Of a DNA stretch of 64,000 nt, positions 5,140 to 51,900 are shown one piece after another. The number at the start of each line of letters is the position of its first letter. The first letter of the stretch is position 1. This DNA comes from Styela clava (taxonomy: Eukaryota). Under the pieces are notes generated by a model, which worked only from the letters and a program-made list of their open reading frames with translations, did no database searches and was not told the origin of the DNA. The stretch spans positions 3,658,001-3,722,000 of the forward strand of contig NC_135253.1 in assembly GCF_964204865.1 (NCBI RefSeq), written 5' to 3'. The position numbers were made by a program, and so were the translations under genes.

Positions 5140-7865
5140 CCCTAAGGCCTAATGAATTAAATCATCCCACCGTTTTTTGTTGCATAGTTGATCGTGAGAC
5201 TACTCTCGCTCTGATGCAACCCAAAATATTAAATTTTATTAACACCCAAAATATATTTTAAGAGAACTTTATGTCACCGGTACAGATGACTTCTCTCCAG
5301 GAAATACCGCTGGTCGAGTTTATAAACTGATAGATCCAGCGAGAAGAGGTGATCCTGATTCTTGTACAAATTCCGCTACAACAAAGACAATATTAGCTGA
5401 CGGGACGTCGACTATACCATACAAGAACAACTGAGCTTATAAGCTGATGAATAATGACATATATTCATATATATCAAACTTCGTGCATTTTCTGTCGAAA
5501 AATATTTTCATTAAAATCTCGATAAAATATTGATATAACATGATCTCATAAAAGGAAAATATGAAGTAATATGAAAATGTATTCACAGACAGAAAATAAG
5601 CAATACCGATTGGGCCGATGTGCAACAAGTCCCAGCTTGAATGGAGTTTTATCAGTAAATAAATAATATATCAGCATCTATTGTGTTAACACCTTATGGG
5701 CGAAGTTCAGCTGCAGTAAAGCAAACGACATTGATTACAGTAAATAAAACCTTGTAAAAGAGTTACATGAAAACTTCCAGATGTGCAACTACACATTTCT
5801 AAACCCCGCAATTGATTTTAGTTGACAGTCATCACCTGGCCTCCATGCTATGCATAAGATGAAAGGGATTTTAAGCATTATTTCAAATGATATCATACCC
5901 TTACTTAGAGCCTAAACGAGACGACATATCAATTTGTGGTGAAAACGTCTGACCACAACACGGCTACGGTAGATCATTTGTATTACCCTGGCGGTAACAA
6001 CCACAAACGCCAAATCAATACAAACCTTACCGACTAGACGCAAATTCCATAATAGGCATTGCGATGATAAAAATTACTCAGCCAAGCGTAGAAAGCAAAT
6101 TGGCCCGGTGTCTCGAAACGTGGGTGACGTCATAACAAGTGAAAAATGATGACCTGCCGGAAACCTGGAATCGTTTATTTGTCGATGTTAGGCTTGGGCA
6201 GTCAAACTTCAGAAAATAGGGGAAATGGAAATATACGTTATTGTGACCTGCATGCTAATTTTGAAAGTGACACAACTCAGGTTTGAGTGGCATGTTGTTC
6301 ATGACCTGGTTCTAAGTATAATCTAAATAAAATATCAGGTTACAGCCTACGCTGTGTGTGACCATTTTTTAATGAATATATGCTGTAAAAAATATAACCC
6401 CAGGCTAAATAATATAATTGCCTATATGTATAAAACTTTTTCAATGAATGTTGATTACGTCATGTGTTCTGTTGGTCCATTTACTTGTATATATTTATAC
6501 AGAATAAGTATTTACCATTTTATCAATTATAAACGATATCTACCACCACTATAAACCCATTACACGTATTTTGAACGAGGTCGTAACCCTGACCCTCAAT
6601 TCGAAACACGATACTACGTTCGATCATCGAAAAAGAATTTCGTCATTTTAAAATGAGATAGGAGAAACTATCTTTCATGCGTAGCGATTTTATGCCTTAA
6701 TTGGTCAATGTCCAACAACTAATCTCCTCTTTGCATTGATGACGTCATAGATGTTGAGTGATGCGTAATAAAGCTAATGTCCACTCTTAATTTCGGTCAA
6801 GTGCTCTTAAAGCGCAATGCCGTCATTTATAACCCGAGTACAGTAGCCCTAATATAGTCAAAACCATCATGTCACCATTCAATATGTCTTTATTTTTGTG
6901 CTTTTATTTGCCAACATGAATAACCTAATTTCAATAAGAGACGTATTAGAAGCTCCTATTCGGATTGTGAATTCATATCAATAGTGCAAACTATTTTTAG
7001 TTTTTGCTGTGTCTTTCTTCATTACATTACAAAAATAAGTGCCGCTTCACTCAAACCCGTTAACATTTATTCAATAACTGACTTCGTCTGGGTAAATAAC
7101 CTTTATTCCATGGTCGATACGTGGTGAAAATAGTAAAAAATATAAGAAACTTACAGAATAATAAAATTGTGAAAGTTGTATATGAGTTCGTTTTCTGAAC
7201 AATTCCCCAAATATAGCCTTTACACATGCACATGGTCGTTTTATAGTAGTGTGATTGTTGAGCTACTTTGCTTGGGGACATCATAGTAATAAAATCGCTT
7301 AGTTAAACTGAAGTGGGCCTGATAACGACATCGGAATATAATCATAAAATGGTTTATAACTCGCGCTTTGGAGAATTGATACAGAATTCTAATTTTCGAT
7401 TGGAACGTCTGTGTATGGCTTGCTATATGATACAATACAAATATCAGCATACGGCCTAGTGGTCCAAAATGTTATTTATAACAAACATTTCAAACATATA
7501 AAAGATTTCAAAAAGGTGTTTATAGCGCGGCAAGAATAATATAAGCTCCCATTGCGCTATAATATAAAATTTATACCCAACGCGCTTCACGTCCCGCGTG
7601 AATTATTCGTGCGAGTCCATTTAAACCGTAAATATCTAAGAAAGTGAAATACAAGTCAGAAGCGGCGGGGAAGTTCGACTCATATCCCTTATTACGCATT
7701 TTAAGAAAGAATCACAGAAGCGGAAAGTCACCACTTTCTTTCTTCGTCATTACGAGACAAAATATTTCTCTAAGTTTAGCCAAGACAGGCGTGGGCCGCA
7801 ACTCAGCATATTTTATCTACTTTTTAATAGCATGTCAAAGGTTTGTGGAAAAAAGGTAGAGGCTT

Positions 7866-7871
7866 TATAAA
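7866..7871 (+). promoter_or_regulatory. TATA box of the small secreted-peptide gene
   Basis: TATAAA about 130 nt upstream of ATG 8001. Confidence 0.4.
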
Positions 7872-8000
7872 TGAGGCAACGCCGTAATGTTGACATATCG
7901 GTGTTGAAATATTCAGAGTAGCTCATCTGCAAAACAAACGCGTTACAAAATAACTTCAAAAGAATACGCGTTTATACTTCAAATATATTTTATTTTAAAA

Positions 8001-8744
8001 ATGGATGTTTGCCGGAAGAATATGATTGTTTTCTTTATGTTATTTCTTATTTGCGGGCCAATAATAACAGATGCATTGGTGGTTATAAGCTCTGAAGAAA
8101 TGAACTGTTTCAAGAAAATTCAAATTTCTGGGTAAGTTGTCATTAACATTGTTTTAACATAATATTTTTTTATATGAATATGCATCTAATCAAAAATATC
8201 AAATTTCCATCTGCTTTCATATTCTGATTAGGCAAATTAATTCAAATAGGTAAAATTACATATATGCCATAGAAACTTTGCTAACAATTAAAAATTTGTT
8301 TTGGGTTCAAATCAGATGCCTTGCATATATTTCTGAAAAATGTACAATCCATAAAAATGCTGTTATAGATCTTTACTGAATTCACATATCAGTAGAGTAA
8401 GCATTTACATTAATATTTAATTTTTTCGTGTTCATAAATTCGTCTTTGAGTGATTCGTGCACTTGAATGTACTGCATATCATTACAAATTCTTGTGTTTG
8501 AAAAACAAACATTATTTCGAATTATATCACCGTAGGCAAACACTTCAAACAAAAATCACATTTACTCGTAGTTTATCTATCGTGGGCAAAGAGCGCATTG
8601 AATGTGGTTAAATATTCTATTCTTTCAATGATATTTATATAATAGTTCACTAAACTACCTTCTTGTTTCAGTCATGTGTCTCGTCACTGTAGGAAAGTTT
8701 TACATCTCGGACGTTTGCGACGAAAAAAACACCACAGTCGCTAG
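8001..8744 (+). CDS. Small secreted cationic peptide precursor, 67 aa (exons 8001-8131, 8672-8744)
   Basis: GG|gtaagt donor and ttgtttcag|T acceptor are phase-2 compatible. Product MDVCRKNMIVFFMLFLICGPIITDA-LVVISSEEMNCFKKIQISGHVSRHCRKVLHLGRLRRKKHHSR*, with a signal-peptide-like N-terminus, upstream TATAAA and AATAAA at 8903-8908. Confidence 0.65.
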
Positions 8745-10959
8745 CAGTAGGATGTTTGCTTCAAAAATCCAACCAGCAAAAGTCTTCATCGGGACTAAAT
8801 AACAAACTTGTTCGAGTGATTTCAATTCTGCCATAAAGAATTTATTTAAGCCACCGTGTAGAAGATTTATGACGTTGTGGTTAACATGTTCGACGGAGTG
8901 TAAATAAAAGCTGGCATGGACCATAAGGGCGTACGTTCAAAGCATATTTATCACAGCTTGAGCTATGTAAAGTTCGAAGTCTGTATGTAGGTTTCTTCTG
9001 AAGGCGACTAGAGTTTGATTCATCAATGCCATGTAAGTCAAATCATGTCGCAGAAGTTATCCCCAATTATTGATCAAAATGCATGGCCCGATCAACTGAA
9101 ACTCCCTTTCAATCATCAATATTTTTACTTCTTGTTTTTATCATATTATGCGGCATGTGTAAAAATTCGTATACAGTAATTTTATCGTGAAAGTAAAAAG
9201 TAATTTTTCTTGTGTAAAATCTGCATAAATGCGATATTTTTTATAGCGATATGAGTATATTTTTACTTTGTGTTTTTTCAATATTCATTTATAAATATAT
9301 CAGATGTTCAATAAATTATTTATTCATGATTTTTTGTCAAATATTTTACGTAATACAATATTATGCAAAAAGGAAGTTAAATTTACAGTTCCGAATGAAC
9401 ATAGTTTATCTATAGAACCAATTTCTGATAGAAAATGAGAAAGGGGTATTTACGTTACGCATTTTCGCAAGAATCTATTCAATCTTAAGCCAGATCTTAC
9501 TAACAAACCGTCCATTGTATTGCAAAAATAATCGGTCCTTAAAATATATGCAAGCGTGTCTTTTTATTTTCGATAATAGATGAAGAAATAAACATTTACG
9601 AAATGAAAGATCAGCAATATATTTATACTTATAAGCGTGTATGTAAGTTCTTACTGTGACATACCATGTAACTGTTGATGCAACAAGTTATTTAACAGAG
9701 CAATCAGGAGAATCCATTTATCAAAAATGCCACAGGAGTAAATATAATATTCGTATTACAGACGATCGATCGTCTGTTGTACATGCTCTACCACGCTTTT
9801 AAAACTATACCGATCGAGATCACGCGAGATTGTGGTTAACATAGTATTGTGGCAATATTACGTTCATCGCTGTGCATGATTTATACAAGCTAGGATTAGA
9901 TATGGTTTTGAAGTCACGCAAGTTCAGCTAAGAGCAGCAAGTAAAAAGTTGGAATACTTTGTTGTTAGAGTCCATATTTGTAAATTTGTAATCGATTGTC
10001 ATTACAAGTGGTTTTGAGTCTGAATGTGCGTACTTTCTAATTAATATATTATAACATACATAAGAAATATGGAGCGCCAATGAAGGTATCAAAAAACTCG
10101 GTTTAAATTACACATACAGCGTAATCTCCGACCAAAATGTATTAGAGAAACCAAGGTATGGAAGTGAAGTCCGAAATATCCGTAACGCGTTCTTCTTTCT
10201 TGTTATTCGTATTGGTAAAGATAAATCTCTCATTATTGAATTTACAACCACAAATAGTAAACAATATTACCAGATCTGGACCACAAACATTGCTTTTTAA
10301 CTGTATATTTAATTCAGGGAATCATAGCCTCTAGTCATCAAGAAGGCTGAAGATTAATAATATATTTTCGTTGAACTGCCGTACTGCTAGTTGAGGCAAC
10401 AATGAACGGCGATTATATCTCACTAATGCGCTTATATTTCGGGTTTTTAGATTGCGGTTGGCATGGTAATTTGCAGGCATGCAAAACGCTTCCACTCAGT
10501 TATCGTGCTGTCTATTCAAACGTATGCAATGTAAAAAAAGTATATGTGATATTTATATTACTTGGCATGCTTCAAAGTGAAGCGTACAATGAAATTGTGT
10601 TATCAAGTACCTTCCTGGAAAATAAATGTGTATGGAATATCTTCCTACTTTTAAAAACCGAAATTTGGCGTGTCGATATCTGTTCTTATTTGGTCCAAAA
10701 ATATTTGAGTTACAGTACATGAAGCCATAAAATATCACGCTAAAGTGTGTAAGATTAACATTATTTGTTGCACGTCTGCGTGAAATTTCAGGGTGTCGTT
10801 GAGTAACGTAAGGTAAGTAATATCTTTCCAAGCAACATGTATACATGAGTAATCCAAAGACGAGGCTATTTTTGTCAAAGTACAATAGCAGGAAGGAAAT
10901 GGCGAATTTTTAGGCGGTGAGTTGATGTGAACGTGTCACTCTCATGTTGCTGTTTAAAC

Positions 10960-11623
10960 TAGGGTTGCCATCTTAGTGTTAAACCGTTCCGGGACACCTC
11001 AATGTCTAGAATTTTAAAAATGATGCAACAGAAACTTGTGAAACACGAAAGACATCAAAAGTCTCAGTGCGCGCTGGGCGTCAAAGAGTGATAAGCGTGC
11101 AGCGGTATTTTCGCAAACTCCAAGCTTCTAAATAATTTTATCATAATCAAAGAAACTTGTGAAATGTTGAATCTTTGAGGCATAAATGAAAAAACACTAA
11201 ACAGGGGAAATGTTGCTAAGTAGATTTAATTATTTAACAAACATCAAACACAAAAAACTCAGTGTTTCTGGTATTTAAATTTATAATTTTCTTGTGATTT
11301 TGCGCTTTAAGAAGATATTTGTCTTTGCTGATAAACTCATAGCATGAAATATGAAAGTTCAATTTCATCATCAAGTTTAGTATGTTTTTACTGTTGGTCC
11401 AAAGCGCATTCATAATATTGACGGTCTTTCACAATTCGCGTTTGACACTGAAATTGACAGGACAAATGACACCTTTTCCAGTTTTGAACAAAGCCGACAC
11501 GCTTATATGGCCTTCTATTTTAAAACGCCTTGGTTGTCAGTAAATTCCGAAACAATCGTAGCTCATCACGGGACGCCAGACGTCAATTCCGGGCAGTCTC
11601 GATCGTTCCGGTTGGTAGCCCTA
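10960..11623. mobile_element. Non-autonomous hAT element (Blackjack/Tip100-like termini)
   Basis: TIRs TAGGGTTGCCA / TGGTAGCCCTA, subterminal CGGGAC motifs, 8-bp flanks gtttaaac / gtctaaaa. Confidence 0.7.
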
Positions 11624-13745
11624 GTCTAAAACCCGCCGCACAAACTTCGTAAGTAATATCAGTATGAACCTACATTATACCTCGTCCACAAAGCTCTCCC
11701 CGCACTGGTATGATACGAGAGTGTGCCATTTCATCCAATATAATAAATGAAATGATGCACTCGATGGACAAAACATAAGCAATTACTTCATTCCCCAACA
11801 TCTATTTATGTCAAAATTTTGAATAAAAGTTAAATTTTTTTGTTTGGGCGTGAAAGTTTTTGATTTACAATTTACATGAAACTCGACGTGACTAACACTC
11901 CACAACAAGGTGCATTTTGTAATATTAATTCAGTAAAATAGACGAAAACTCATTTCGCGCCCCTATGTGGAAATTTTGATATAATATGTCATTTAGTAGT
12001 TTATTTTTGTATAACGATTGGTTAGCAGCGTTGAAAGGGCTTGTACGATGCAAACACCACAACAATAGCATGAAACGTCAAAATAGAGCCTGAGAAATTG
12101 TTTTCATGCTTTTATAACTTTGAATAAAGGCAAGGTATTTTAGTGAATACCGAGATGAATGGATAATTTGACAGTTTTGACATCGCACGTTATAAATTGA
12201 AGTTTTAACCTGGGTTTGGCTGTAAATCACTGAAGCTTGAAGGCTTTAAAAAAAACTTAATATGAAGTACACAAGCTTACATTTAAAATTCACTATAACG
12301 GGTGGCAACATGACAAAATCTATCACAAAAAATAGTCGCCTTTCGATAGATAAATATACTAGAATGTCAATGATTTCGAAATCGTTGTCACCGTAGCTGG
12401 ATTGCAAGGTGAGGACGCTCCGGGAGGTCTAGCAGGGTTAGGCTAACATGACAAAAATTCTAGAATTTGATTTAAAGAAGTGACGCTAATTCCTACTATT
12501 TCTATGTTCGATATGGCTAACATTTTCTGAATATCATCATTTTATACGATTGGTCTACATGTATGGAAATCAAAGCCTACCTCGAATAATATGAGAACAC
12601 GTTGGTAATAGAAATAAATCACATCATCTTGGAATTTTGTTTAGTTAAGAATGGATATGGCCATCAACCTAACACAACACACCATGTCATGCAAAACAAC
12701 ACTTTGTAATAACAACCGAGACATTGGCGGAAACTCGTTTGCTCTCTCGAAATGGGCCATCAATACGCGATGATGAAATTCGAATACTTGACGTTGGACT
12801 GTACAAACTTAAATTCAATCAGTATTATTATGAATTCTCAGTAACATAAAAGTTAAAGTAACTTTCAACCAAACATTCAGGTTTGTGACAGGCCTGTTCT
12901 TGCGCAGCAGATGTCTTCACAATTTTATTCATATCATGCTTTTTTAAATGTAATGAAAGAATTAAGTGTTTTAACGGATTATTTGGCTAACCCTAGACAT
13001 GTATTCTACGGAATGCTACATTCAAATATATTGAAATCAGATATCTTGTAGAAAGCCCCCGCCACTAATGCAAAAATTCGAGATTTGAGAAAAACACTCT
13101 CGCCACGTTTTACATGAATTTTTAGAGTTAGGATTAGGGTTAGAACGCTGAATTCAATGCTGTACTGAATTTCATCAATGAATACGATTCCAACTGGATA
13201 ATCAACAAACACTTTTTTTGATCGATGGCGGAGGTGTTTTTTGGGCGGCTTTCTACAAAAGATCCATAATATCTTAAGTATACATAAAATGTAGATCATG
13301 ACAGCTATCACGATGTACGACTTGTATCCAAATCAAATATTTTGGAAAATGGTCCTTTGATAGTACGAATTATATTGCATAGTAAAGTAAAAACCGTAAC
13401 TGCTCTTTACAATAAAACGTGGCCGATTTCTTCGTGATTATCCGTCTGTGGTCTGCGCAGAAATATATGTCAATGATAAGTACTGGATTACAGCAGAGGA
13501 GCACTGAGGCTACACGAAAATAACAATACCCTGAGGGAGAAAATGACTAGTATCGCTCAAAGTGGGCAATCGCTGCAGACTGTTGTAACTGAAGCGTTAA
13601 ATGGTAAAATTGGAACCGATGCATAACAACGTTCTGCAGAAATATAGTGGAAGATATGCCTCAGACATGTTGAAACTTCAATGTTGACAGATATTTTCAG
13701 GATTAGGAGAAGCAAATTTTAAACAAGAACGCTGTACCGGGAAAT

Positions 13746-26852
<13,107 letters not shown>

Positions 26853-28287: not shown

Positions 28288-31200
28288 CTATGTTGTGTAG
28301 CCAAGTTTTGTGTTAGGATCCAGTTTTGGTTTTCCATAGTAAGTTTTGGGCCCATCTGAAGGCATATCAATTTTAGGTTTTTGAATATATCTTGCACCAC
28401 TTTGCGAGTCCGTCTCCTCGCTTAATATATCACTAAGGTTTTCCAGATCTTCAGACATCCTAACATTACTTATATCACTAATGTCAGATGGCTGGTAAGA
28501 GCTAACTGAATCAGAACGTCTTATTGGGCTTACTGGCTTCTCAAAATCTGAAGATCCAGAACCCGAACTAGTCGGTCTTGTTTTTCTTCCTGGATGATGG
28601 TAGATCCTTCTAATCCTTTCTCTTGATGATTCTGGAGATGAAATTGGAGAGAACCTCCTTGTAGAAGGAGGAGATGGAGTCATCCTTGAAGGTTTTGGAG
28701 GAGGAGGTTGATTTATTCCTCGCTTTGATGATGGAGGTTCTTTGATTGTCTTTGGAAGATGTACTTCTTTTTTTAGTGACTTTTTCTTTGAATGTTTGGT
28801 CGATTTTGAAGTGAGGCTGTGCTTTTCAGGCAATGGAAACTGCTCTGTGCTACCAGATTCTGTATTGATTGACTGGATAATTGGAGAATCAGAAGGAATA
28901 GGTCCGGGTACCGTAATGTTGCCTACTTTCACATCTCTAGGATCAGATTTTTTCTTCATGAGAGCTGTAACTATCGACCCCTTTGAAACCGACGATGTAT
29001 CGATTGCATCATCAGATGATGTGGTTAGCCTTTGTGCACTTGCACTCCTCAACTCTCCTACTTGCTTTATGATTTCCTCTCCATAACTGTCAGTAAAATC
29101 AGAAGTTCTAGTAGTTGTGATTGTTGAATCAAAGGATTTTGATGGAAATGGTGCAATTGGTTTTCGCTTCTCTTCCGTACTCTCTTCTTCTTCCTCCTCA
29201 TCTTCCTCTTTGATAATCATTGTTGAGTTGATAGGTGTGAGTGCAGAGGGAGTACGATTTGCAGACCAGGTTTTATCATCTTCAAAATCATCTGAATATC
29301 TGTATCTTTCTGATACAGAAACGTCAGATGCTGCCTGTTTTTCATCGGTTTCCATTGCCAATTTCATGTATCTTTCATCTTTCAATTGTTCGTTAGGATA
29401 TTCAGGAGGAGTGTGAAATCCTGCTTCTTCTTCCTCTTCTTCTATTTTGTTTTTCTTGAAAAGTTTTTCTTTATCACTAGAGGTGGATTCCCAATCAGCA
29501 TCATCATCATCTTTACCCAGAGTAAATTCTGTTGATGCAGTTGGGAGGTGAATCTCAATACTTCTCTGGCTTTGTCGACTGTGCACTCTCGGAGTACCTA
29601 GATCTTTTACAATCATGAGATCTTCTATTCCGACATCCACCTCTTTTTCATCTTTGTCCAGTGATTGTTCATATCGAGATTCTGACGTCAGATGACCCAT
29701 CGAGGGAACATCCATATCAGTTGCCTCTTCATAACCTTTGTAATAATGTAAAAAAGAACTTGAAACTTAAAAAAGAAAAACTCACTTAAAACAGGATAGC
29801 AGATAGTGTGACAGATTACTTTAGAAGAGTATATATTCGTTCGTTAATTTACATATTTGTTGGGTTGGAGACAATCGGGCGTGTGATGCCAAGAAACTAC
29901 CTATAATAATCTACACTATCTGAGAAATATTTGAAACAAATCTAAAAAACATCTTACCTGCCATTCGTCCAAGATAGACAGTTTGTTGCTGAACATTTGT
30001 TGCTGGCATTCTGCGATACATGCTGCTATCAGGACCACTCGCAGTCGTGATCATTTTAACATGTTTGCTTCCAGCTGCAAATTGCTGTTTAATTGTGTAT
30101 GTCTGACCCAAGTTTGATTGTTTCACAGATTTCATACTTGAGCGTAAGGGCTTTCGTTCAGGAGTGAAAACATATTGATCTCTTTCCCTTATGGTAGTCT
30201 TATTCATAGCCATTCTGAGACGCATAGAGTTTGTGAGTCCAAACTTGAGTGGTTGTTTACGATCAGGCTGTCTCTTTATTGTTTTCGATCCAGCTAAAAA
30301 TGGTTTTACGGATTTCTTAGTTTGTACAGGTAAAGTGGTTTTCTCCATATCTTGTACATTTGGAACTGGTGTTTCAGGAGGTTTAGATTCATTCAGACCC
30401 AACCTAACAACTTCCTCAACCAATGCTCTTAATATTGGAAAGTCATTGAGAGATGATGATATCCCTGCCGATACACCTTTCTCTGTTTGTGTAGCGTGAC
30501 TTGATACAAATCCATTACGACTTGGAGATTTACAAACAACAGATGAGGGAATGATAATTTTGTTTCTCTCATTATTGTCAAGGTCAGACATTGTCAGAGA
30601 AGTTTCAGGTCTGTATTGTACTTTATGCGATATTGCTTGCTTCTGTTTCTTATAATAGCTTCTTTCTATATCATCAGAATTCCTATCATAATAAAGAGCA
30701 GGAGGACAAAAAATATTTTCAGTAGAACCCAGTGCCTCCCGAGTTGGCTGAATAGGAATTTGGACATACTTCGATGGCATGTTACGTTTAGTTGTTTGTG
30801 TTGCTCCAGATGAAAGCAATTTCTCTTTAGAATTATTAACTTTGTATGATTTTACATTTTCTTTGTTACTGTCATCGTCAAATTTAATTGATTTTGTAAC
30901 CTGACTTTTTTCAGGTGCATGTATATCAAAAATTGGTGAGGAAGCTCTGTCATTAATTTTCTTAGAAGTTGAAAGGCTTTTTTTAGATATAATAGGTGAA
31001 TTTTCAAGTTTTATAGGCTCAGAAATTCCCGACACATGTTGTAACATCATTACTCCAAGACTTGTCAATCTCACACCCATTTCCATTTCACCAACTTTAT
31101 TTCCCATGAGATTATACAACGGAAATACATCTCTCTCTCCATCGGCAGAAGGGACTTCGATGCCAGTTTCTGAAACATTCCGCACAATCCTTCTAATCGC

Positions 31201-31596
31201 GTTTTCAAGGCTAAGGGCAAAAGAAGCAACAAGTCTGGGTGTTTTTGGTAAAACATCCATCAGCATAACATACACAGGGATACTGCATAGACTTTCTTCC
31301 AGTTCAGTTATCTTCATTTTTATTAAACATGATTTCCCATTTGTAAAAGAATAAGTTCCTGTACTATATTGTAACTCCAACATTTGTGGTGTTTTTATTG
31401 TTGAATCAGGATTGTTCTCAACATAGTCTTTCACCTTTTGCAATTCATCATCTGTGATTAAATTCAAGTCAAGCGGCGGATAATCTAGCAATCGAACAGA
31501 AATGGAAGGAATTCGACAAACAACAGCACGTTTGAGAAAAACTGTTTTTACAGCAACCCCAAAGGAAAAAAGTGATGCTGTTTCCGAAGTAGCCAT
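28288..31596 (-). CDS. MAP10: Microtubule-associated protein 10 (KIAA1383)-like, 1028 aa; exons 31596-29958 and 29735-28288
   Basis: N-terminal C2-like region matches the recalled MAP10 pattern (LFSF..V, VRLLDYP, F.NGKSCL, FPLYNLMG.KVG.....RLT.LG..ML.H), followed by a long low-complexity Ser/Pro/Lys/acidic tail. Phase-1 GT-AG intron (GCAG|gtaag...caaag|GT); total 3087 nt. Confidence 0.85.
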
Positions 31597-32576
31597 AGAG
31601 TAGATTTTTAAACTGTTAGGAAGAACAGTGAATAGATAACAAAATTACCGCTAAATAACGTATCATTGCAAAATACAAATGCCCTCACTACCACACTAAA
31701 AACAGTATAAACGTTATAATTTGAATTATTCATTAGTACACTTCTGACAACAGGACAGTCGATGGAGTGCACACTTTTAAGACAAGGTTATGAATTCTCA
31801 TATGTAACATATCGGCCTACATAATTTATTCAGACTGTGTCAGTGTGTACGGATGTATAATGTTTTCTGTCATAGGTTGTTGCTATTTTATAATTACATT
31901 TATATATTACTGGGATAATGTGTTATACCATAATGTGTGGTACCATAGTAATTTACAAAGTTATCACAACAATGCATCTATGGAACCAATTGGGGATTTT
32001 TGTAATAATTTGCAATGTTACACTTTAATGTTCCCTATATTCAAAACTGCATGCTGCCTTTCATCCACACATTTTTTTATTTGTTTTGTACATTTGTTAA
32101 TTGTTCGTGAATTTTTGTGTTTCTAAAAGCAAACTACGTGTCCTAGTCTATATCTTTTCACTTATTTAGATTTGTGCTATACACAGACAGACCCAGAATT
32201 TGCAGCATTCAAAATCAGCTTCATTTATTTATAAATATATATATATAAGTTCTGGGGCTAATTCTGGTAGTCTCTCAATAAACCATAATTGGATATGAAC
32301 ATGTGGATCGTTAAATTGTCATCAATCAAAGACGAAAGAAGTTGTTAGAAGTTTATTACATTTAATTATCTATCTAAATTTTGCTGTTTTTTTAGATTGC
32401 GTTAAAAGTATTGCCATATTCTGAATCGCCTTTACTCTTTGTGTTTACTCTTGTGTTTTATTTTTTTGGTGGGTGGGCATGTACTTGTACGCTTTTTAAA
32501 CTTTATTTCAAGTTATGCTCGCCTCCCAGGTATCTCTGCATTTTGTTTGTATGTTTACTTTTTGTGTTGTTCGGCA

Positions 32577-45919: not shown

Positions 45920-48900
45920 TCATCCAAGACTGCTGCGATTGCTCTTTCTGCCTTCGCCGTCCTGTGATTTGTGTTTTTCTGCGTATTCTTTTTGTTTATC
46001 TCCTTCAAACAAAGGTAAGAGTCGTAGGTTTGTATCTTTATCCAAGACGCAACGTTGCATTAGATCAAGATATGTCAGGTTTTCTTTTGTGTTAGGATCG
46101 AAAAAACCTTTCGTGTCATCAGATGGGTCTTCTAGAATTTTCTGCAATCTTTCGTCAAAAAGTCCTCTCTCAAATGCAACTTCAACCGGGAGTCGATGAT
46201 TGGCTAGCGGGTCAATGATTCCTGAAATCATATTGAAATTGAAAAAAAAAGTTTCAGTGATACAAAAGAACGCAATACCAATAATTGTGTATTTTTCAAT
46301 TTTATTGTTTCATTTCATTCACAGTTATTGAAACACTATGCTTTGTTCTGCAATGTGCAGTTAGATAATATGATATATATATATATATGATTAGTTATAT
46401 ATATTGACTTTTTCTTGTCGTTACAAATTTTTGAGTAGTACTAATGTTAAGAGGGCTCGCCAGAAGCTACAAATTACTAAATAATACTTTATTTATTTTT
46501 AAATCAACATATATTACTAAATTTAAAATACCTCCTGTGGCAATTTGTGCTTCCAATAATCTTATTCCGTGATTTTCAACAACAAGCTTCCTTTTCATGG
46601 CTTCAAATAAGGACAATGGTTGAGGGGCAAGTCGTGATACATAACCATGTACTGCGCGCTCAGCTCTTTGTAACACAACTTGAAACTGTCGATCAACAAG
46701 GTCTTCCTCGACAGCGTCTTGAACAGACATTTTTCTTGCCGTTACAGGGTTAATAATACTCCCAGTAGCGGCTTGTGCCTCAAGCAAGCTGAGTGCTGTT
46801 CCTCGTCGGATAATTCCCTTTCTGCAGGCATCCAGTAGGGACATTTTTTCTCCGGTATCGACTTTAATCAAACCAGCGATAGGTTCGTCTCCAACCAGAT
46901 ATTGCTTGAGACCTTCCTGTACTTCTTCTTCGGTGACTTCCCCAAACTCCAACTTTTTGACAGTCGATTCCAATATCAATCTGGCTCGTATTAAATCGAG
47001 TAATTTCACCGCCTTTCTCCAACCCGATGTTAGGACAATGTCGTCTCGCTTTTTACTTGGTGTCATTCTAGGTGTCTCGGGTGCCTCGTCTTCAGACGAT
47101 GACGAACTTGATGACGAAGATGATGTTGAATCGCGGCGTTTTTCTGCTTCTACCGATGGAGCAGCCTCTACTGGTTGCACTGTTTCTTCTACAGGTTCAG
47201 GCGTATTTTCTTCTTCCTCGTGTCCAGATTTAGATGATGCACTGGATGAGGAAGATGACGTTGAATCGCGACGTTCTCGGTCAGCTTCCACTGGTGGAAG
47301 GGCTTCTACCGCTGGCAGCTGTTCCTTCTGGTGTTCATTATGTTTGTCTTCATCTTCTGACTCAGAAGAAGAACTAGAGGAGGTAGAGGACATAGAATCG
47401 CGGGGGCCCTGTTCTGCTTCTGATGTTTGTGAAACTTCCAATTTTTGCGTAGTTTCTTTTTTAGACTCATTAGATTCATCCCCGTTTTCTGAATCAGACG
47501 ACGAAGAAGACGATCCGGAATCCGGAGGTGTTTTGCGTGCTTCCACAGTTGGAAGAACATCCGGCAGCACTGAATCCTCCAGCGATTTGTCTGGTTTCTT
47601 ATATTCATTTTCCGAGTTGCTACTAGAACTGCTGCCTGAACTGGTCTTTCTTTCTTTTGATCTAAAAGTTTGTGTTGGTACAGCGATTGTTACTTCTGTC
47701 TCCGAATCGCTGCTACTTGAAGAAACAAGCGATTCTTTATTTGGCAGATCTTGAGCTGCGTTGCTACTAGATGACGAGACAGTTCTATCTTTATTTTGTG
47801 GACTTTTATTTTCAGCTTGAACAATCTCACTATGTATTTCTTCTTTAACTTCGTCGTCTGATTCACCTGAACTGGAAGAAGATGAAGAATGACCCGATTT
47901 TTCAGAATAGTTAATATCCTCTTTGTCTGCGGCAAAGTTTCCATTATCTTTGGTCTGGTCGATCTCGTCTTCCGATTCGCTGCTACTGCTGCTTGAAGAC
48001 TTTCCCGCGGAAACGAGTTCACCAATTTTTACATCAGTTTCCTGTTTAATTTGTTTATCACCATCGCCTTTGGTGCCATCGTCTTCAGATTCACTACTAC
48101 TGCTCGAAGAAAGTTTATCTTTAGTTTTAACGTCTGGAACAATTTCTACATCAATATTTTTATTTTCACCATCAGATTCGCTGCTATCACTACTACTGGA
48201 CGATTCTTTTTGTTTTGGAAATTCCGATGACTCGCCACCCGTTATTGGTTTCTTCGTAATATCATCGATTTCTTTTTCGCTGTCAGAATCGCTACTACTG
48301 CTAGAAGAGAGTGGTTGATCCTTTTCAGTAGATTTTTGACTCTTGGGCTCAGAATCCAAATTCTTTTCGTTCTCCGATTCACTGCTGCTCGAAGATGATT
48401 CAGTCGCCTTATCTTTCTGCTGGACATCTGAAGAAAGCTCTTGATCAGTTTTAATTTTCTTCTCGTTGTCAGACTCACTGCTGCTGCTGGACGATATTTT
48501 TTGGACAATGTTTTTTGGTGATATGCTTGCAGGCCCATTTCTTTGTCTTCTGGTTTCGTCATCAGATTCGCTACTACTGCTACTCGATGACATGCCCACT
48601 TTTGCTTTAGTCTCTGATTTATCAGATACAATTTCGTCTTCACTGCTACTTGTTGACGACGTTCTTGCTTTCACCAACTCTTTATCGGGTAGCAATATAA
48701 CAGGTTGTTTGCTATCATCATCGGATTCCGAACTTGAAGACGATGAAGAATGTTTTTTCTCCAAAGCCCTCTTATCACCAAAAATCGGCACCGCTGTCTC
48801 TGCGTCGTTATCTTCACTGGATGACGAAGAAGAAGATTTGATAACATGACTCTCTTTTTCCATTGCTTTCTGTTGAATTGGAGGCATTTGTTCATCTTTT

Positions 48901-51900
48901 TTGTTATCATCATTTTCCGACTCTGAAGATGACGAACTTGATTTTCGATTAACAGCTGCTTCGAGTTGACTGTCTTTTTTATTCGAATACCTTTCTTCAT
49001 CATCAGATACTGAAGATTCTGATGACATTGACTCTGCATCAAGGCTAATTTTTTTTGGTGCCACCAATTGTATGTCAGCGTTATCTTTAACTACGGGTTC
49101 ATCTTTTGTATCTTGCTCCTTTTCAGATTCACTGCTTTCGCTGCTACTACTCATTGATTCGTGCACATCGACAGGCTTCATGTGCAAGGTTTCTGTTACT
49201 CCAGGTTTAGATTCATTTTTTTCGTCTTCCGACGAAGATGAGGAAGAACTGCCATCACATTTTGGGGAGGTTAGCACTTGATCTTCTATCTTTTTCGTTT
49301 CACCTTCGCTTTCGGAACTACTGCTCGATGTTGTTTGTTTGTGTGGCGATTGATAAGATGTAATAGTCACAGTCTCTTCAATCGGAATATTCGGGGTTGC
49401 AGTGATTGTTTTGCTTTCATCTTCTGATTCCGACGAAGTACTACTTTCTGAAGACATTGATACATCTTCCTTCTTTTCACTCTTTGTTGGATTATCATCG
49501 TCGACAACCACGTATGAAGAATCACCAGAAACAACAATTTCTTTTTGTTCGCTATCGTCACTAGAGGAACTAGAGGTCTTTCGTTTTGTCGGCATTGACT
49601 CGGGTTCGATTACTACATTGATTTTTTCATCATTATCAGATTCACTGCTTGACGACGACGTCTTGTCATGTGTTTGCGGCGGTTCCTTGACAACCATGAC
49701 AAAATCTGGTGATTTTGTTTCTCTCTCAATTTTTTGAGATTTTTGTGAATCCGAATCAGAGCTGCAAGATGAAGAGGATTTCGTCGACCCACCAAGTAAT
49801 TCCTTGCTTGCGGCGTCACAGTCGTGATTGGAATTTGTTTTCCCTGGTTTCTCATCATCAATAATTACAAACGAATCTAGAGATTTTGGTTGCTCATCAC
49901 CGCTTCCTCTTTTTGGGGACGCTATATAGTTAAAGTCTGAACTTCCAGAACTGCTTGACGAAGTTGACTCCTTTCTTGGAAAAGTTGGTGCTGCGTGTTC
50001 TTTCTCTACATCATCGACAGAAACGGGATAAATATTTTCTTCTTTATCATCGCTGCTGCTGGATGAACTACTACTACTTCTTTTAGCATATGTTTTAGGC
50101 TCTATTTGGGGGTCATCAAGCCTATTTTCTCCCGCGCTAACGTATGAATTCGAACTGTCAGAGCTGGGTTTCTCAGCTTTAATAACTGGTACAGTAGTCG
50201 ACTTCTCTTCATCGCTAGTACTGGATGATGATGACTGTTGAAATAGGAATAATAAGTTAATATATGTCATATTAACAAAATAAAGAACAAATGTTAGGAG
50301 TTTGTGTAAATAAATAAATACCAATAAAATTATTATTTATTGAACATGTAACTAAGGCTAAACATGTGTTCGTATGCGTATTCCAATGTAGCCTAGTAGA
50401 TACCTTTGTTGATGATTTTTTAATAGACCCTGGACTCGTGCTATGTTTTTGTAATAACTTCATATCTTCTGGATCATCAAAATCAACCTCTCGAGTGTGT
50501 CCACCTTGCTTGAAAACTACTCTTCCGTCTCTATCGGTGGTCACGTGGGGTTCATCGACAGGAGATGGTGTTCTGTGCAAAGTCAATTATTGAATATGAT
50601 ATCGTTAAGCAATCAATCGTACTTGACATATGAAAAAATTTGCGAGCTACTGAACATAATTTATGTGGCATAATTTACCTGCTTCGAGATTGTACCGAAT
50701 CCTGCTCATCTTTATTAGCGGCCAGACTTTCAAAATACTTTTTTCTTCTTGAAACTCGACCCTTAGAAGTTTGCTTTGCAGATGATGACGATGATCCACT
50801 TGAAGAAGGTTTTGAATCTGATTCTGAAGAAGACGAACTTCCTTCTTTAGGTAACCTAGTTATATAAATCATTGTGAATATAATTAAATCGGAATAGAAA
50901 GAAAGTTGAACCACGACAGCTTATACATTAGGATCTTGTGAACTTGATTGTATTCCTGTCCCCAGTTCTATTTATCACCACGAATTATATTATTAGCCAA
51001 GCGATGCCAGAAACATGAGTCTCTTATTGGCAAATGTGGTGTAATTTCACGAATAACTGTTTTATATTTTTACTCATGCTTTATGTTGAAATATGAAGTA
51101 TTGTATTTTTCTTTTGTTCTATAAATTATCGTAATATTTTTTGGTAACATATGCCACCAACCTTCCAGTCTTGGGTTTTTTCTTTGTTAACCTCTTTTTT
51201 TTACCAGAGGACCCAGATGACGACGACGATGATGATAATTTCTTTGGCGCAGACTGTTCACTACTTTCTTCGGCCAGTGGTACATTATCAGACCTAGTAT
51301 TTTGAATTTACGACATTATTAGTATAACAAAAGAAAATAAATGAAACCCGTTTTAATGAACGTAAATAGTCAAATGAGCCTGATCCATATCATGAGAAAA
51401 TACATATCATAAGACACAATAAATACATAATTTTCCAATCATTATTAAATGTTAGAATAGTAGAGGACTTGGCTAACCTATAAACCGAGGAGGCTGAGAC
51501 AACTGATTCAATGCAAATACTGCAATTTACTGAAATAAACGAATAATTTTATCATAGAAAAATAATAACCAACTGAGAAATTTTACATCGCTGTGAAAAT
51601 CAGCGATGATTGTGAGCGAAAAAACACAAATAGCTTGCATGGCAATTTTATATCGCTGTGAATCTCAGCGGTATTGATATATTGTGAGTAGAAATAAGAT
51701 ATCAAACAGATGCCTCACATCACAAATGGGCACAAATAACTCACACGAAATAAATGAACAGGTGTATCAGAATTAAAGTAAAAAAACTTTGGATTCGGGA
51801 TCGTGTTCGACTGTACATTGATGAATTGTCCTCACTTGTGCGGCGTTAAAGATAAATAACCAAGCTCAGAAAGCGAAGATAACATCGGCAAGTTTATAAA

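What the first reader, a model, noticed from the sequence alone, without database searches (positions are those of the whole stretch)
7866..8908. Hidden two-exon gene for a small secreted, Cys-paired, His/Arg-rich peptide
Seen: TATAAA, ATG 8001, consensus splice sites, stop at 8744 and AATAAA at 8903. Neither exon appears in the ORF track. The 67-aa product has a hydrophobic leader ending in TDA, and a 42-aa mature part with C-x13-C and a strongly cationic tail (HLGRLRRKKHHSR). Established: ascidians make His-rich cationic antimicrobial peptides (clavanins, styelins, halocidin), and Gly before basic residues is the amidation/convertase signal. Inference: an unrecognised antimicrobial peptide or amidated neuropeptide/hormone precursor; I do not recognise it as a known family.
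Basis: partly seen in the sequence, partly recalled or inferred. Interest (0 to 1): 0.7.

Follow-up and report, generated by a model that had tools for sequence, protein, structure and literature searches.

The report
Orphan looped cationic sea-squirt peptide gene
A sea squirt (Styela clava) has a spliced, expressed, single-copy gene, not found in the protein collections searched, for a 67-residue protein predicted to be secreted as a strongly positively charged peptide with one cysteine loop, which likely serves host defence, though a hormone role is nearly as likely and neither is tested.

Summary
The gene is real. The 8131/8672 GT-AG junction stands in 6 of 6 RNA-type runs laid (three studies) and 0 of 2 DNA-type runs. 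The neighbouring HHIPL1 gene has its own leader exon, so the alternative-leader refutation fails. One correction: transcripts run 300-720 bases past the AATAAA at 8903; AATAAA 9587 fits better. The genome is Styela clava. The 67-aa product is single-copy and has no credible homologue (exons searched separately). All 3 itemised coding variants are synonymous. The predicted 42-aa mature peptide has net charge +9, five His and a Cys36-Cys50 loop. It is not a clavanin or styelin: no acidic tail, and helical amphipathy no better than shuffles. It fails natriuretic and MCH membership tests, though it shares some MCH features. The proposed amidation needs a cut at a single basic residue and is weakly supported. 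Best reading: host-defence peptide (0.45); signalling ligand next (0.33). The scan holds no look-alike of it, but has noted other orphan secreted peptides in this genome.

The parts
7640..7649 (+). IRF-type 10-mer (GAAANNGAAA class) upstream of the gene; function untested
   Evidence: 13 such sites in the window, 8.4% of 400-bp background windows hold one
7722..7731 (-). kappaB-like site, one mismatch to GGGRNWYYCC; function untested
   Evidence: this motif class is at chance level in the window (54 found, 53 expected)
7866..7871 (+). TATA box
   Evidence: bridging contigs begin 7916-7927
7916..8131 (+). exon 1 (5' end at or before 7916): 5' UTR of at least 85 nt without ATG, and codons 1-43 plus two bases of Gly44
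8001..8075 (+). predicted signal peptide, residues 1-25 (hydropathy peak 3.5; Thr at -3, Ala at -1)
   Evidence: SignalP not available, cleavage site inferred
8076..8105 (+). residues 26-35, short spacer with net charge -2 before the first loop cysteine
8106..8690 (+). Cys36-x13-Cys50 loop, split by the intron at Gly44; disulfide inferred
8132..8671 (+). 540-nt phase-2 GT-AG intron
   Evidence: joint in 6 of 6 RNA-type runs, 0 of 2 DNA-type runs
8672..9624 (+). exon 2: codons 44-67, stop 8742-8744, and a 3' UTR of up to about 880 nt
   Evidence: the UTR folds no better than shuffles (z 0.52)
8691..8741 (+). basic tail, residues 51-67 (8 Lys/Arg, 3 His, no acidic residue), with Gly57 and a furin-type R-x-R-R at 58-61
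   Evidence: allele CGA to AGG at codon 61 keeps Arg61
8903..8908 (+).
9587..9592 (+). AATAAA that best fits the longest contig end (9624)

Best explanation
This spliced, expressed, single-copy Styela clava gene encodes a 67-aa protein that is predicted to be secreted as a 42-aa cationic peptide with one disulfide loop and that likely acts in host defence, by binding anionic microbial surfaces. Shown: transcript, splice, reading frame, charge (11 Lys/Arg, 2 Glu, 5 His, pI 11.4), single copy, only synonymous itemised coding variants. Inferred: cleavage after Ala25; a Cys36-Cys50 disulfide, which fits a hairpin turning at Ile42-Ser43-Gly44 with Ile40 facing Val46; residues 44-59 as a modestly amphipathic segment; the basic tail as the part that docks on LPS, teichoic acid or membranes, with His adding charge at low pH; possible trimming after Arg61; induction through the IRF-type and kappaB-like sites. 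Killing would rely more on charge than on a hydrophobic helix, so it may be weak in full seawater salt, and the peptide may work as an immune signal as much as a killer.
For: Net +9, 12% His, 36% hydrophobic residues in the mature part. Signal followed almost directly by a short cationic peptide, in a species known for His-rich cationic defence peptides (PMC10817596, PMC10608444, passages) whose genes are in this genome. No dibasic site and no long pro-region before the loop, unlike most prohormones (established knowledge). No detectable homologue, as is usual for fast-evolving defence peptides (PMC7387483 part 1). IRF-type plus kappaB-like sites within 400 bp occur together in 1.3% of 2472 background windows, and an IRF-type 10-mer also lies upstream of 2 of 3 styelin genes; S. 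clava has IRF and Rel-domain factors (PMC8122590, passages).
Against: Best 11-residue helical moment 0.79 is reached by 276 of 2000 shuffles, against 4 of 2000 for clavanin; its mean hydrophobicity is -0.54 against +0.12. No Trp or Tyr and one Phe in the mature part. No acidic C-terminal piece (last 20 residues 9 basic, 0 acidic; clavanin 2 and 4). Single copy, whereas clavanins and styelins are multi-copy. 0 amino-acid changes among itemised variants where about 3.5 are expected at UTR density (P about 0.03), which suits a receptor ligand. The promoter evidence is post hoc (8 motif classes tried), the kappaB class is at chance level, 0 of 4 clavanin-leader promoters have the IRF-type site, and the styelin genes are paralogues, so not independent. 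No tissue, induction or activity data.
Confidence: 0.45

Rival explanations
1. It is a signalling ligand (peptide hormone, neuropeptide or paracrine factor). The disulfide loop would be the receptor-binding part, and convertases would trim the basic tail at Arg51-Lys52, Arg58 or Arg61, in one version leaving an amide at Leu56.
For: Single copy; 3 of 3 itemised coding variants synonymous, among them a two-base change that keeps Arg61, the last residue of the furin-type motif; several basic sites in the tail; weak amphipathy. Shares with MCH-type peptides a Cys pair and a basic residue penultimate to the second Cys (PMC4772807 section 3.1.2), Val three residues after the second Cys and Met two before the first as in teleost MCHB (PMC6901935 passages); shares Phe after the first Cys with natriuretic peptides (PMC6878697 section 5).
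Against: No dibasic site before the loop; no Gly-Lys-Arg or Gly-Arg-Arg; loop of 13 fits neither family; PF00212 and PF05824 searches of the genome do not return this locus (both run exon by exon, so the split loop is at a disadvantage); the intron lies inside the loop, whereas in PMCH it splits residue 4, before the ring; MCH receptors reported absent from Ciona in one survey (PMC2396169), putative in another as cited in PMC6901935.
Confidence: 0.33
2. It is a matrix-bound peptide: the basic, His-rich tail would tie it to sulfated glycans or metal ions in tunic, mucus or granules, with a structural, adhesive or packaging role.
For: Tail 51-67 has 8 Lys/Arg and 3 His in 17 residues, a low helical moment (0.16) and 24% hydrophobic residues, the make-up of a heparin-binding patch (established knowledge). 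Ascidians are rich in sulfated glycans (recalled).
Against: No repeats, no Tyr for cross-linking, very small size; nothing tested. Glycan binding is also compatible with the two readings above.
Confidence: 0.14
3. The RNA is real but the ORF is not translated, or gives a non-functional or membrane-retained microprotein.
For: No homologue in any search; no protein-level evidence; one allele (X9, 4 differences in 7916-8130) was not itemised, so amino-acid changes there cannot be excluded.
Against: First ATG in a strong context, longest sense ORF, frame kept across the splice, 0.08% chance in simulations, synonymous-only itemised variants; Asp24 in the hydrophobic stretch favours cleavage over a membrane anchor (inference).
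Confidence: 0.08

Closest known systems
Clavanins (Pfam PF05452) and styelins (PF17562) of Styela clava
   Same: Same species; small TATA-driven (clavanin) spliced genes for a signal peptide followed by a cationic, His-containing peptide.
   Different: No sequence match; different leader; other contigs (C1, C10 against C4); they are multi-copy, end in an acidic piece, and clavanin forms a significant amphipathic helix without Cys; this one is single-copy, ends basic and has a Cys pair.
Halocidin and dicynthaurin (Halocynthia aurantium)
   Same: Ascidian cationic defence peptides with a single disulfide (PMC10817596, PMC10608444, passages).
   Different: Their disulfide joins two chains; here two Cys in one chain would close a 15-residue loop. 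Sequences were not compared.
MCH-type peptides (vertebrate PMCH, Pfam PF05824; starfish ArMCH)
   Same: Cys pair; Arg penultimate to the second Cys; Val three after it; Met two before the first Cys as in teleost MCHB; invertebrate rings are longer than vertebrate ones.
   Different: 13 residues in the loop against 8 (vertebrates) or 10 (ambulacrarians); Phe, not Met/Ile, after the first Cys; no dibasic site before; 17-residue tail after; intron inside the loop; precursor 67 aa against 88-180; no PF05824 hit.
Natriuretic peptides (ANP/BNP/CNP, Pfam PF00212)
   Same: One disulfide ring starting Cys-Phe, basic tail (the tail likeness to BNP is recalled).
   Different: Loop 13 against 15; no Arg at loop position 7 (Ser here); no pro-region; a chance-level genome hit (E 0.65) elsewhere fits the family motif better.
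Ciona linear cationic antimicrobial candidates (Ci-MAM, Ci-PAP; Ohtsuka and Inagaki 2020)
   Same: 50-100 aa secreted precursors with Arg-rich segments, many uncharacterised, some without an anionic helix (PMC7387483 part 1).
   Different: That class is defined as Cys-free and amphipathic-helical; this peptide has a Cys pair and would have been filtered out.

Membership tests
Clavanin/styelin | match to PF05452 or PF17562 | tested here: not met
   the families hit other loci at up to 119.6 and 41.6 bits, not this one
Clavanin/styelin | acidic C-terminal propiece | tested here: not met
   last 20 residues 9 basic, 0 acidic
Clavanin/styelin | Cys-free amphipathic helix | tested here: not met
   two Cys; moment reached by 276 of 2000 shuffles (clavanin 4 of 2000)
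Clavanin/styelin | signal peptide plus cationic, His-containing mature part | tested here: met
   (hydropathy and charge; SignalP not run)
Cationic host-defence peptide (functional class) | antimicrobial activity; haemocyte or epithelial expression | not testable with these tools
   run tissues are not given; no assay
Natriuretic peptide | 15-residue loop between two Cys | tested here: not met
   13 residues; criterion from PMC6878697 section 5
Natriuretic peptide | Phe at loop position 1 | tested here: met
   Phe37
Natriuretic peptide | Arg at loop position 7 | tested here: not met
   Ser43; no Arg in loop positions 1-11
Natriuretic peptide | match to PF00212 | tested here: inconclusive
   no hit, but both searches saw the two halves of the loop separately
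MCH-type | Cys pair with basic residue penultimate to the second Cys | tested here: met
   Arg48, Cys50
MCH-type | Met or Ile after the first Cys | tested here: not met
   Phe37
MCH-type | peptide at the precursor's C-terminus, preceded by a dibasic site | tested here: not met
   no dibasic site in residues 26-36; 17 residues follow Cys50
MCH-type | ring of 8 (vertebrate) or 10 (ambulacrarian) residues; intron before the ring | tested here: not met
   13 residues; intron at Gly44 inside the loop
MCH-type | cognate MCH-type receptor in the genome and its activation | not tested
   literature on Ciona is split; no receptor search was made
Alternative leader exon of HHIPL1 | splice from 8131 to 15203 | tested here: not met
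   15203 joins 13840 in 3 of 3 RNA-type runs laid there; HHIPL1 has its own ATG 13746 and leader

The most novel reading that the evidence does not exclude
The Cys36-Cys50 loop is a highly diverged tunicate MCH-type (or, less likely, natriuretic-type) ring hormone with a five-residue insertion, the missing ligand of a family known from vertebrates and ambulacrarians but with no tunicate peptide in the papers read here.
Probability: 0.06. Interest if true: 0.75.

Novelty: new variant of a known kind. Interest (0 to 1): 0.38.

Why it matters
If it is a defence peptide, it adds a single-chain, disulfide-looped type without an acidic propiece to the Styela repertoire, which in the reviews read is linear and helical, and it is of a kind that Cys-excluding screens of ascidian genomes discard by design. 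It is short enough to synthesise and test at once. If it is a hormone, it is a candidate ligand for orphan tunicate receptors and bears on which ring-peptide families the closest relatives of vertebrates kept. It also shows that a well-supported spliced gene can be missing from a protein collection that holds its annotated neighbour. As one of many orphan secreted peptides in ascidian genomes, without function data it is of moderate interest.

Tried and rejected
Alternative leader of HHIPL1: rejected. End at AATAAA 8903: read through. Paralogues: none by DNA or by either exon in G000 (1 candidate each), none above noise by tblastn in the window, 60 kb upstream and the other loci then held (best other E 0.14); diverged paralogues elsewhere could be missed. 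Homologues: exon 1 found no candidate at 23-76 aa and 1 candidate, not scoring E 10, at 77-2000 aa; the 1.84-billion search gave 1 hit, an 825-aa repeat-built sequence matching only the leader through 9 summed stretches, rejected as spurious; Pfam 0 families for either exon; PDB 0 for residues 24-43 and 45-67; Atlas no usable hit for exon 1, which shows neither absence nor novelty. Exon 2 (23 aa) is below the size limit of the large protein searches, and the joined peptide was not searched against any outside collection, so orthologues conserved mainly across the loop or in the tail remain possible. No other tunicate genome is on hand. PF00212, PF11037 and PF05824 searches of the genome: 3, 0 and 4 sub-cut-off hits, none here (one search's control rang nowhere, so it is uninformative). 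No listed run is on record as RNA: no RNA holder listed by record; tissue and level cannot be read from contigs. 3' UTR structure: none above shuffles. Two perfect CRE sites at 6125 and 6740 (4 in 124 kb) lie 1.2-1.8 kb upstream, one beside a local repeat; not used. Structure prediction was not run, as the loop spans the intron. Print: four short motifs of the peptide found in 0 papers (main texts of the CC-licensed PMC set and bioRxiv, no figures or supplements); listings showed no paper on it; supplements of S. clava genome or transcriptome papers were not seen and may list it.

Full report
Observation. The splice is real. A 540-nt GT..AG joint stands in contigs of X1, X5 and X9 and of X2, X3 and X6: 6 of 6 RNA-type runs laid, from three studies, out of 9 listed, and 0 of 2 DNA-type runs. 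The RNA label is a guess of the tool, but X1, X5 and X9 also skip the HHIPL1 introns and leave intergenic bins empty where the DNA run does not. Four bridging contigs begin at 7916-7927, just after the TATA box. They end at 9462, 9513, 9519, 9525 and 9624, and at 9209 in X6, so the AATAAA at 8903 is read through; AATAAA at 9587 suits the longest.

The alternative that exon 1 is a leader of HHIPL1 fails. The exon at 15203 joins 13840 in 3 of 3 RNA-type runs laid there; that upstream exon has its own ATG (13746) and hydrophobic leader, identical to the start of the annotated protein. That protein is named HHIP-like protein 1 of Styela clava and lies on a contig of the same length as C4; clavanin and styelin genes are in the genome. 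This also serves as a control: the collection holds the neighbour's annotated protein, yet no protein of 23-76 aa shares three words with exon 1, so the small product appears unannotated there.

Coding evidence. The frame opens at the first ATG of the bridged transcript and is its longest sense ORF. Simulated transcripts gave a first-ATG ORF of 60 aa or more with a signal-like leader in 0.08% of 5000. In one search the itemised differences account for every difference in the coding part of four runs: three positions, all synonymous (8048; 8721 with 8723, a two-base change that keeps Arg61) against 17 in 781 bases of 3' UTR; about 3.5 amino-acid changes would be expected at UTR density (P about 0.03). 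This is modest evidence: two of the three share a codon, and four differences in exon 1 of X9 were not itemised.

Anatomy. Residues 1-25 look like a signal peptide (hydropathy peak 3.5, Thr at -3, Ala at -1; SignalP could not be run). The 42-aa remainder has a 10-residue spacer of net charge -2, a Cys36-x13-Cys50 loop split by the intron at Gly44, and a 17-residue tail with 8 Lys/Arg and 3 His; overall net +9, pI 11.4, 5.0 kDa. Written as a hairpin, Cys36 faces Cys50 and Ile40 faces Val46 with the turn at Ile42-Ser43-Gly44, a register compatible with a cross-strand disulfide (inference; no fold was predicted). Basic sites lie at 38-39, 51-52 and 58-63, none before the loop. Gly57 precedes Arg-Leu-Arg-Arg: a furin-type cut after Arg61 and trimming would end at Leu59, so amidation at Leu56 requires a monobasic cut and is not the default outcome (inference from established rules).

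Relatives. None found. One copy in the genome by DNA and by each exon; nothing above noise nearby; no Pfam family, no PDB match, no usable Atlas hit, no credible hit among 1.84 billion representatives (1 hit, a repeat-built sequence matching the leader only), none among longer proteins. These outside searches saw the exons separately, the two largest only exon 1, more than half of which is signal peptide, and no other tunicate genome could be searched, so absence of orthologues is not shown. The scan holds no look-alike and no note nearby. Four short motifs occur in 0 papers of the held library.

Comparison with the species' own defence peptides. Clavanin exon 2 has no Cys, ends acidic, and has a helix whose moment is reached by 4 of 2000 shuffles; styelins end in an acidic exon. 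The present peptide ends basic, has two Cys, and its best moment is reached by 276 of 2000 shuffles at much lower hydrophobicity. It is therefore not a member of either family; it shares only the signal-plus-cationic plan. Upstream lie an IRF-type 10-mer (7640) and a kappaB-like site (7722); both within 400 bp occur in 1.3% of 2472 background windows, which include this promoter, and an IRF-type site precedes 2 of 3 styelin genes but 0 of 4 clavanin-leader genes, which are GATA-rich. Eight motif classes were tried, so this is a weak hint. The gene lies between an RNF213-like gene and HHIPL1.

Comparison with ring hormones. Natriuretic peptides need a 15-residue loop with Phe at 1 and Arg at 7 (PMC6878697 section 5): only the Phe is met, and a chance-level hit elsewhere in the genome fits better. 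MCH-type peptides have a Cys pair, Met/Ile after the first Cys, a basic residue penultimate to the second, a dibasic site before and a C-terminal place (PMC4772807 section 3.1.2): the Cys pair and Arg48 are met, and Val53 and Met34 match positions described in PMC6901935 (passages); ring size, the residue after the first Cys, the dibasic site, the position and the intron are not. PF05824 does not return the locus. MCH receptors are reported absent from Ciona (PMC2396169, passages) or putative (as cited in PMC6901935). The resemblance was first noticed from recall and has no statistical support.

Papers seen: passages of PMC10817596, PMC10608444, PMC9966394, PMC5818035, PMC4772807, PMC6901935, PMC2396169, PMC8122590; passages and section 5 of PMC6878697; part 1 of 5 of PMC7387483; all others as search listings only. 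No supplements were read. Notes of other agents named the species, gave the leads on sea-squirt natriuretic-like genes and on basic tails as glycan tethers, and show that orphan secreted peptides are common in this genome; only the species and the styelin layout were checked here.

Verdict. A real, expressed, apparently unannotated orphan gene for a likely secreted, looped, strongly cationic peptide. I put host defence at 0.45, signalling ligand at 0.33, matrix-bound role at 0.14 and no functional peptide at 0.08; the first two are not exclusive. It belongs to no family tested, but works like known kinds: a new variant of a known kind, interest 0.38. The boldest reading left open, a tunicate MCH-type or natriuretic-type hormone, has probability about 0.06.

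Noticed in passing
L014 (G000:C10, about 21158150, minus) and L015 (G000:C1, about 22047950, minus): Two genes start with the clavanin leader exon and a TATA box at -71 but have no PF05452 match for exon 2. About 1.1 kb downstream their open frame lacks the His-rich helix and holds about ten or more tandem copies of an 11-16-residue Tyr/Trp-containing unit resembling the clavanin acidic tail, running off the fetched DNA. They may be multi-copy precursors of short Tyr-rich peptides; splicing not checked.
   Followed up: no
window 13585-26852 (+): HHIP-like protein 1 of Styela clava (P0002, 721 aa, folate-receptor-like, GSDH and SRCR domains); seven introns bridged by RNA-type contigs.
   Followed up: yes
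L009-L006 (G000:C4, about 3,601,000-3,637,000, +), upstream of the window: RNF213-like gene (E 2e-174 to RNF213 structures for one exon), followed by degenerate transposase-like and LINE-like frames (by eye) before the window.
   Followed up: partly
L025 (G000:C2:14929914-14929952, +): Best PF00212 hit in the genome (E 0.65, below cut-off): a short Cys-Phe-Gly...Asp-Arg-Leu ring of nine inner residues before a stop, right after an acceptor-like site. Likely an off-frame reading of another gene's exon; expression not checked.
   Followed up: partly
window 8214-8700: Low-depth (2-4) unspliced intron contigs in the RNA-type runs, consistent with pre-mRNA; one allele has a 28-base intron deletion at 8370.
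   Followed up: no
window 6969-7191 and up to 7549: Faint contigs (depth under 3) in two RNA-type runs upstream of the promoter; may be DNA carry-over or a weak transcript.
   Followed up: no
window 28288-31644 (-): Two long adjacent ORFs (577 and 492 aa); the first holds a MAP10 N-terminal domain. Probably one gene, tail to tail with HHIPL1.
   Followed up: partly
window 45920-50336 (-) and beyond: Plakin-type gene with plectin repeats and a 1289-codon exon rich in Ser/Glu/Asp runs.
   Followed up: no
window 24430-25708: 16-bp-period tandem arrays in an HHIPL1 intron, with a related unit at the window's first 220 bases (by eye).
   Followed up: no
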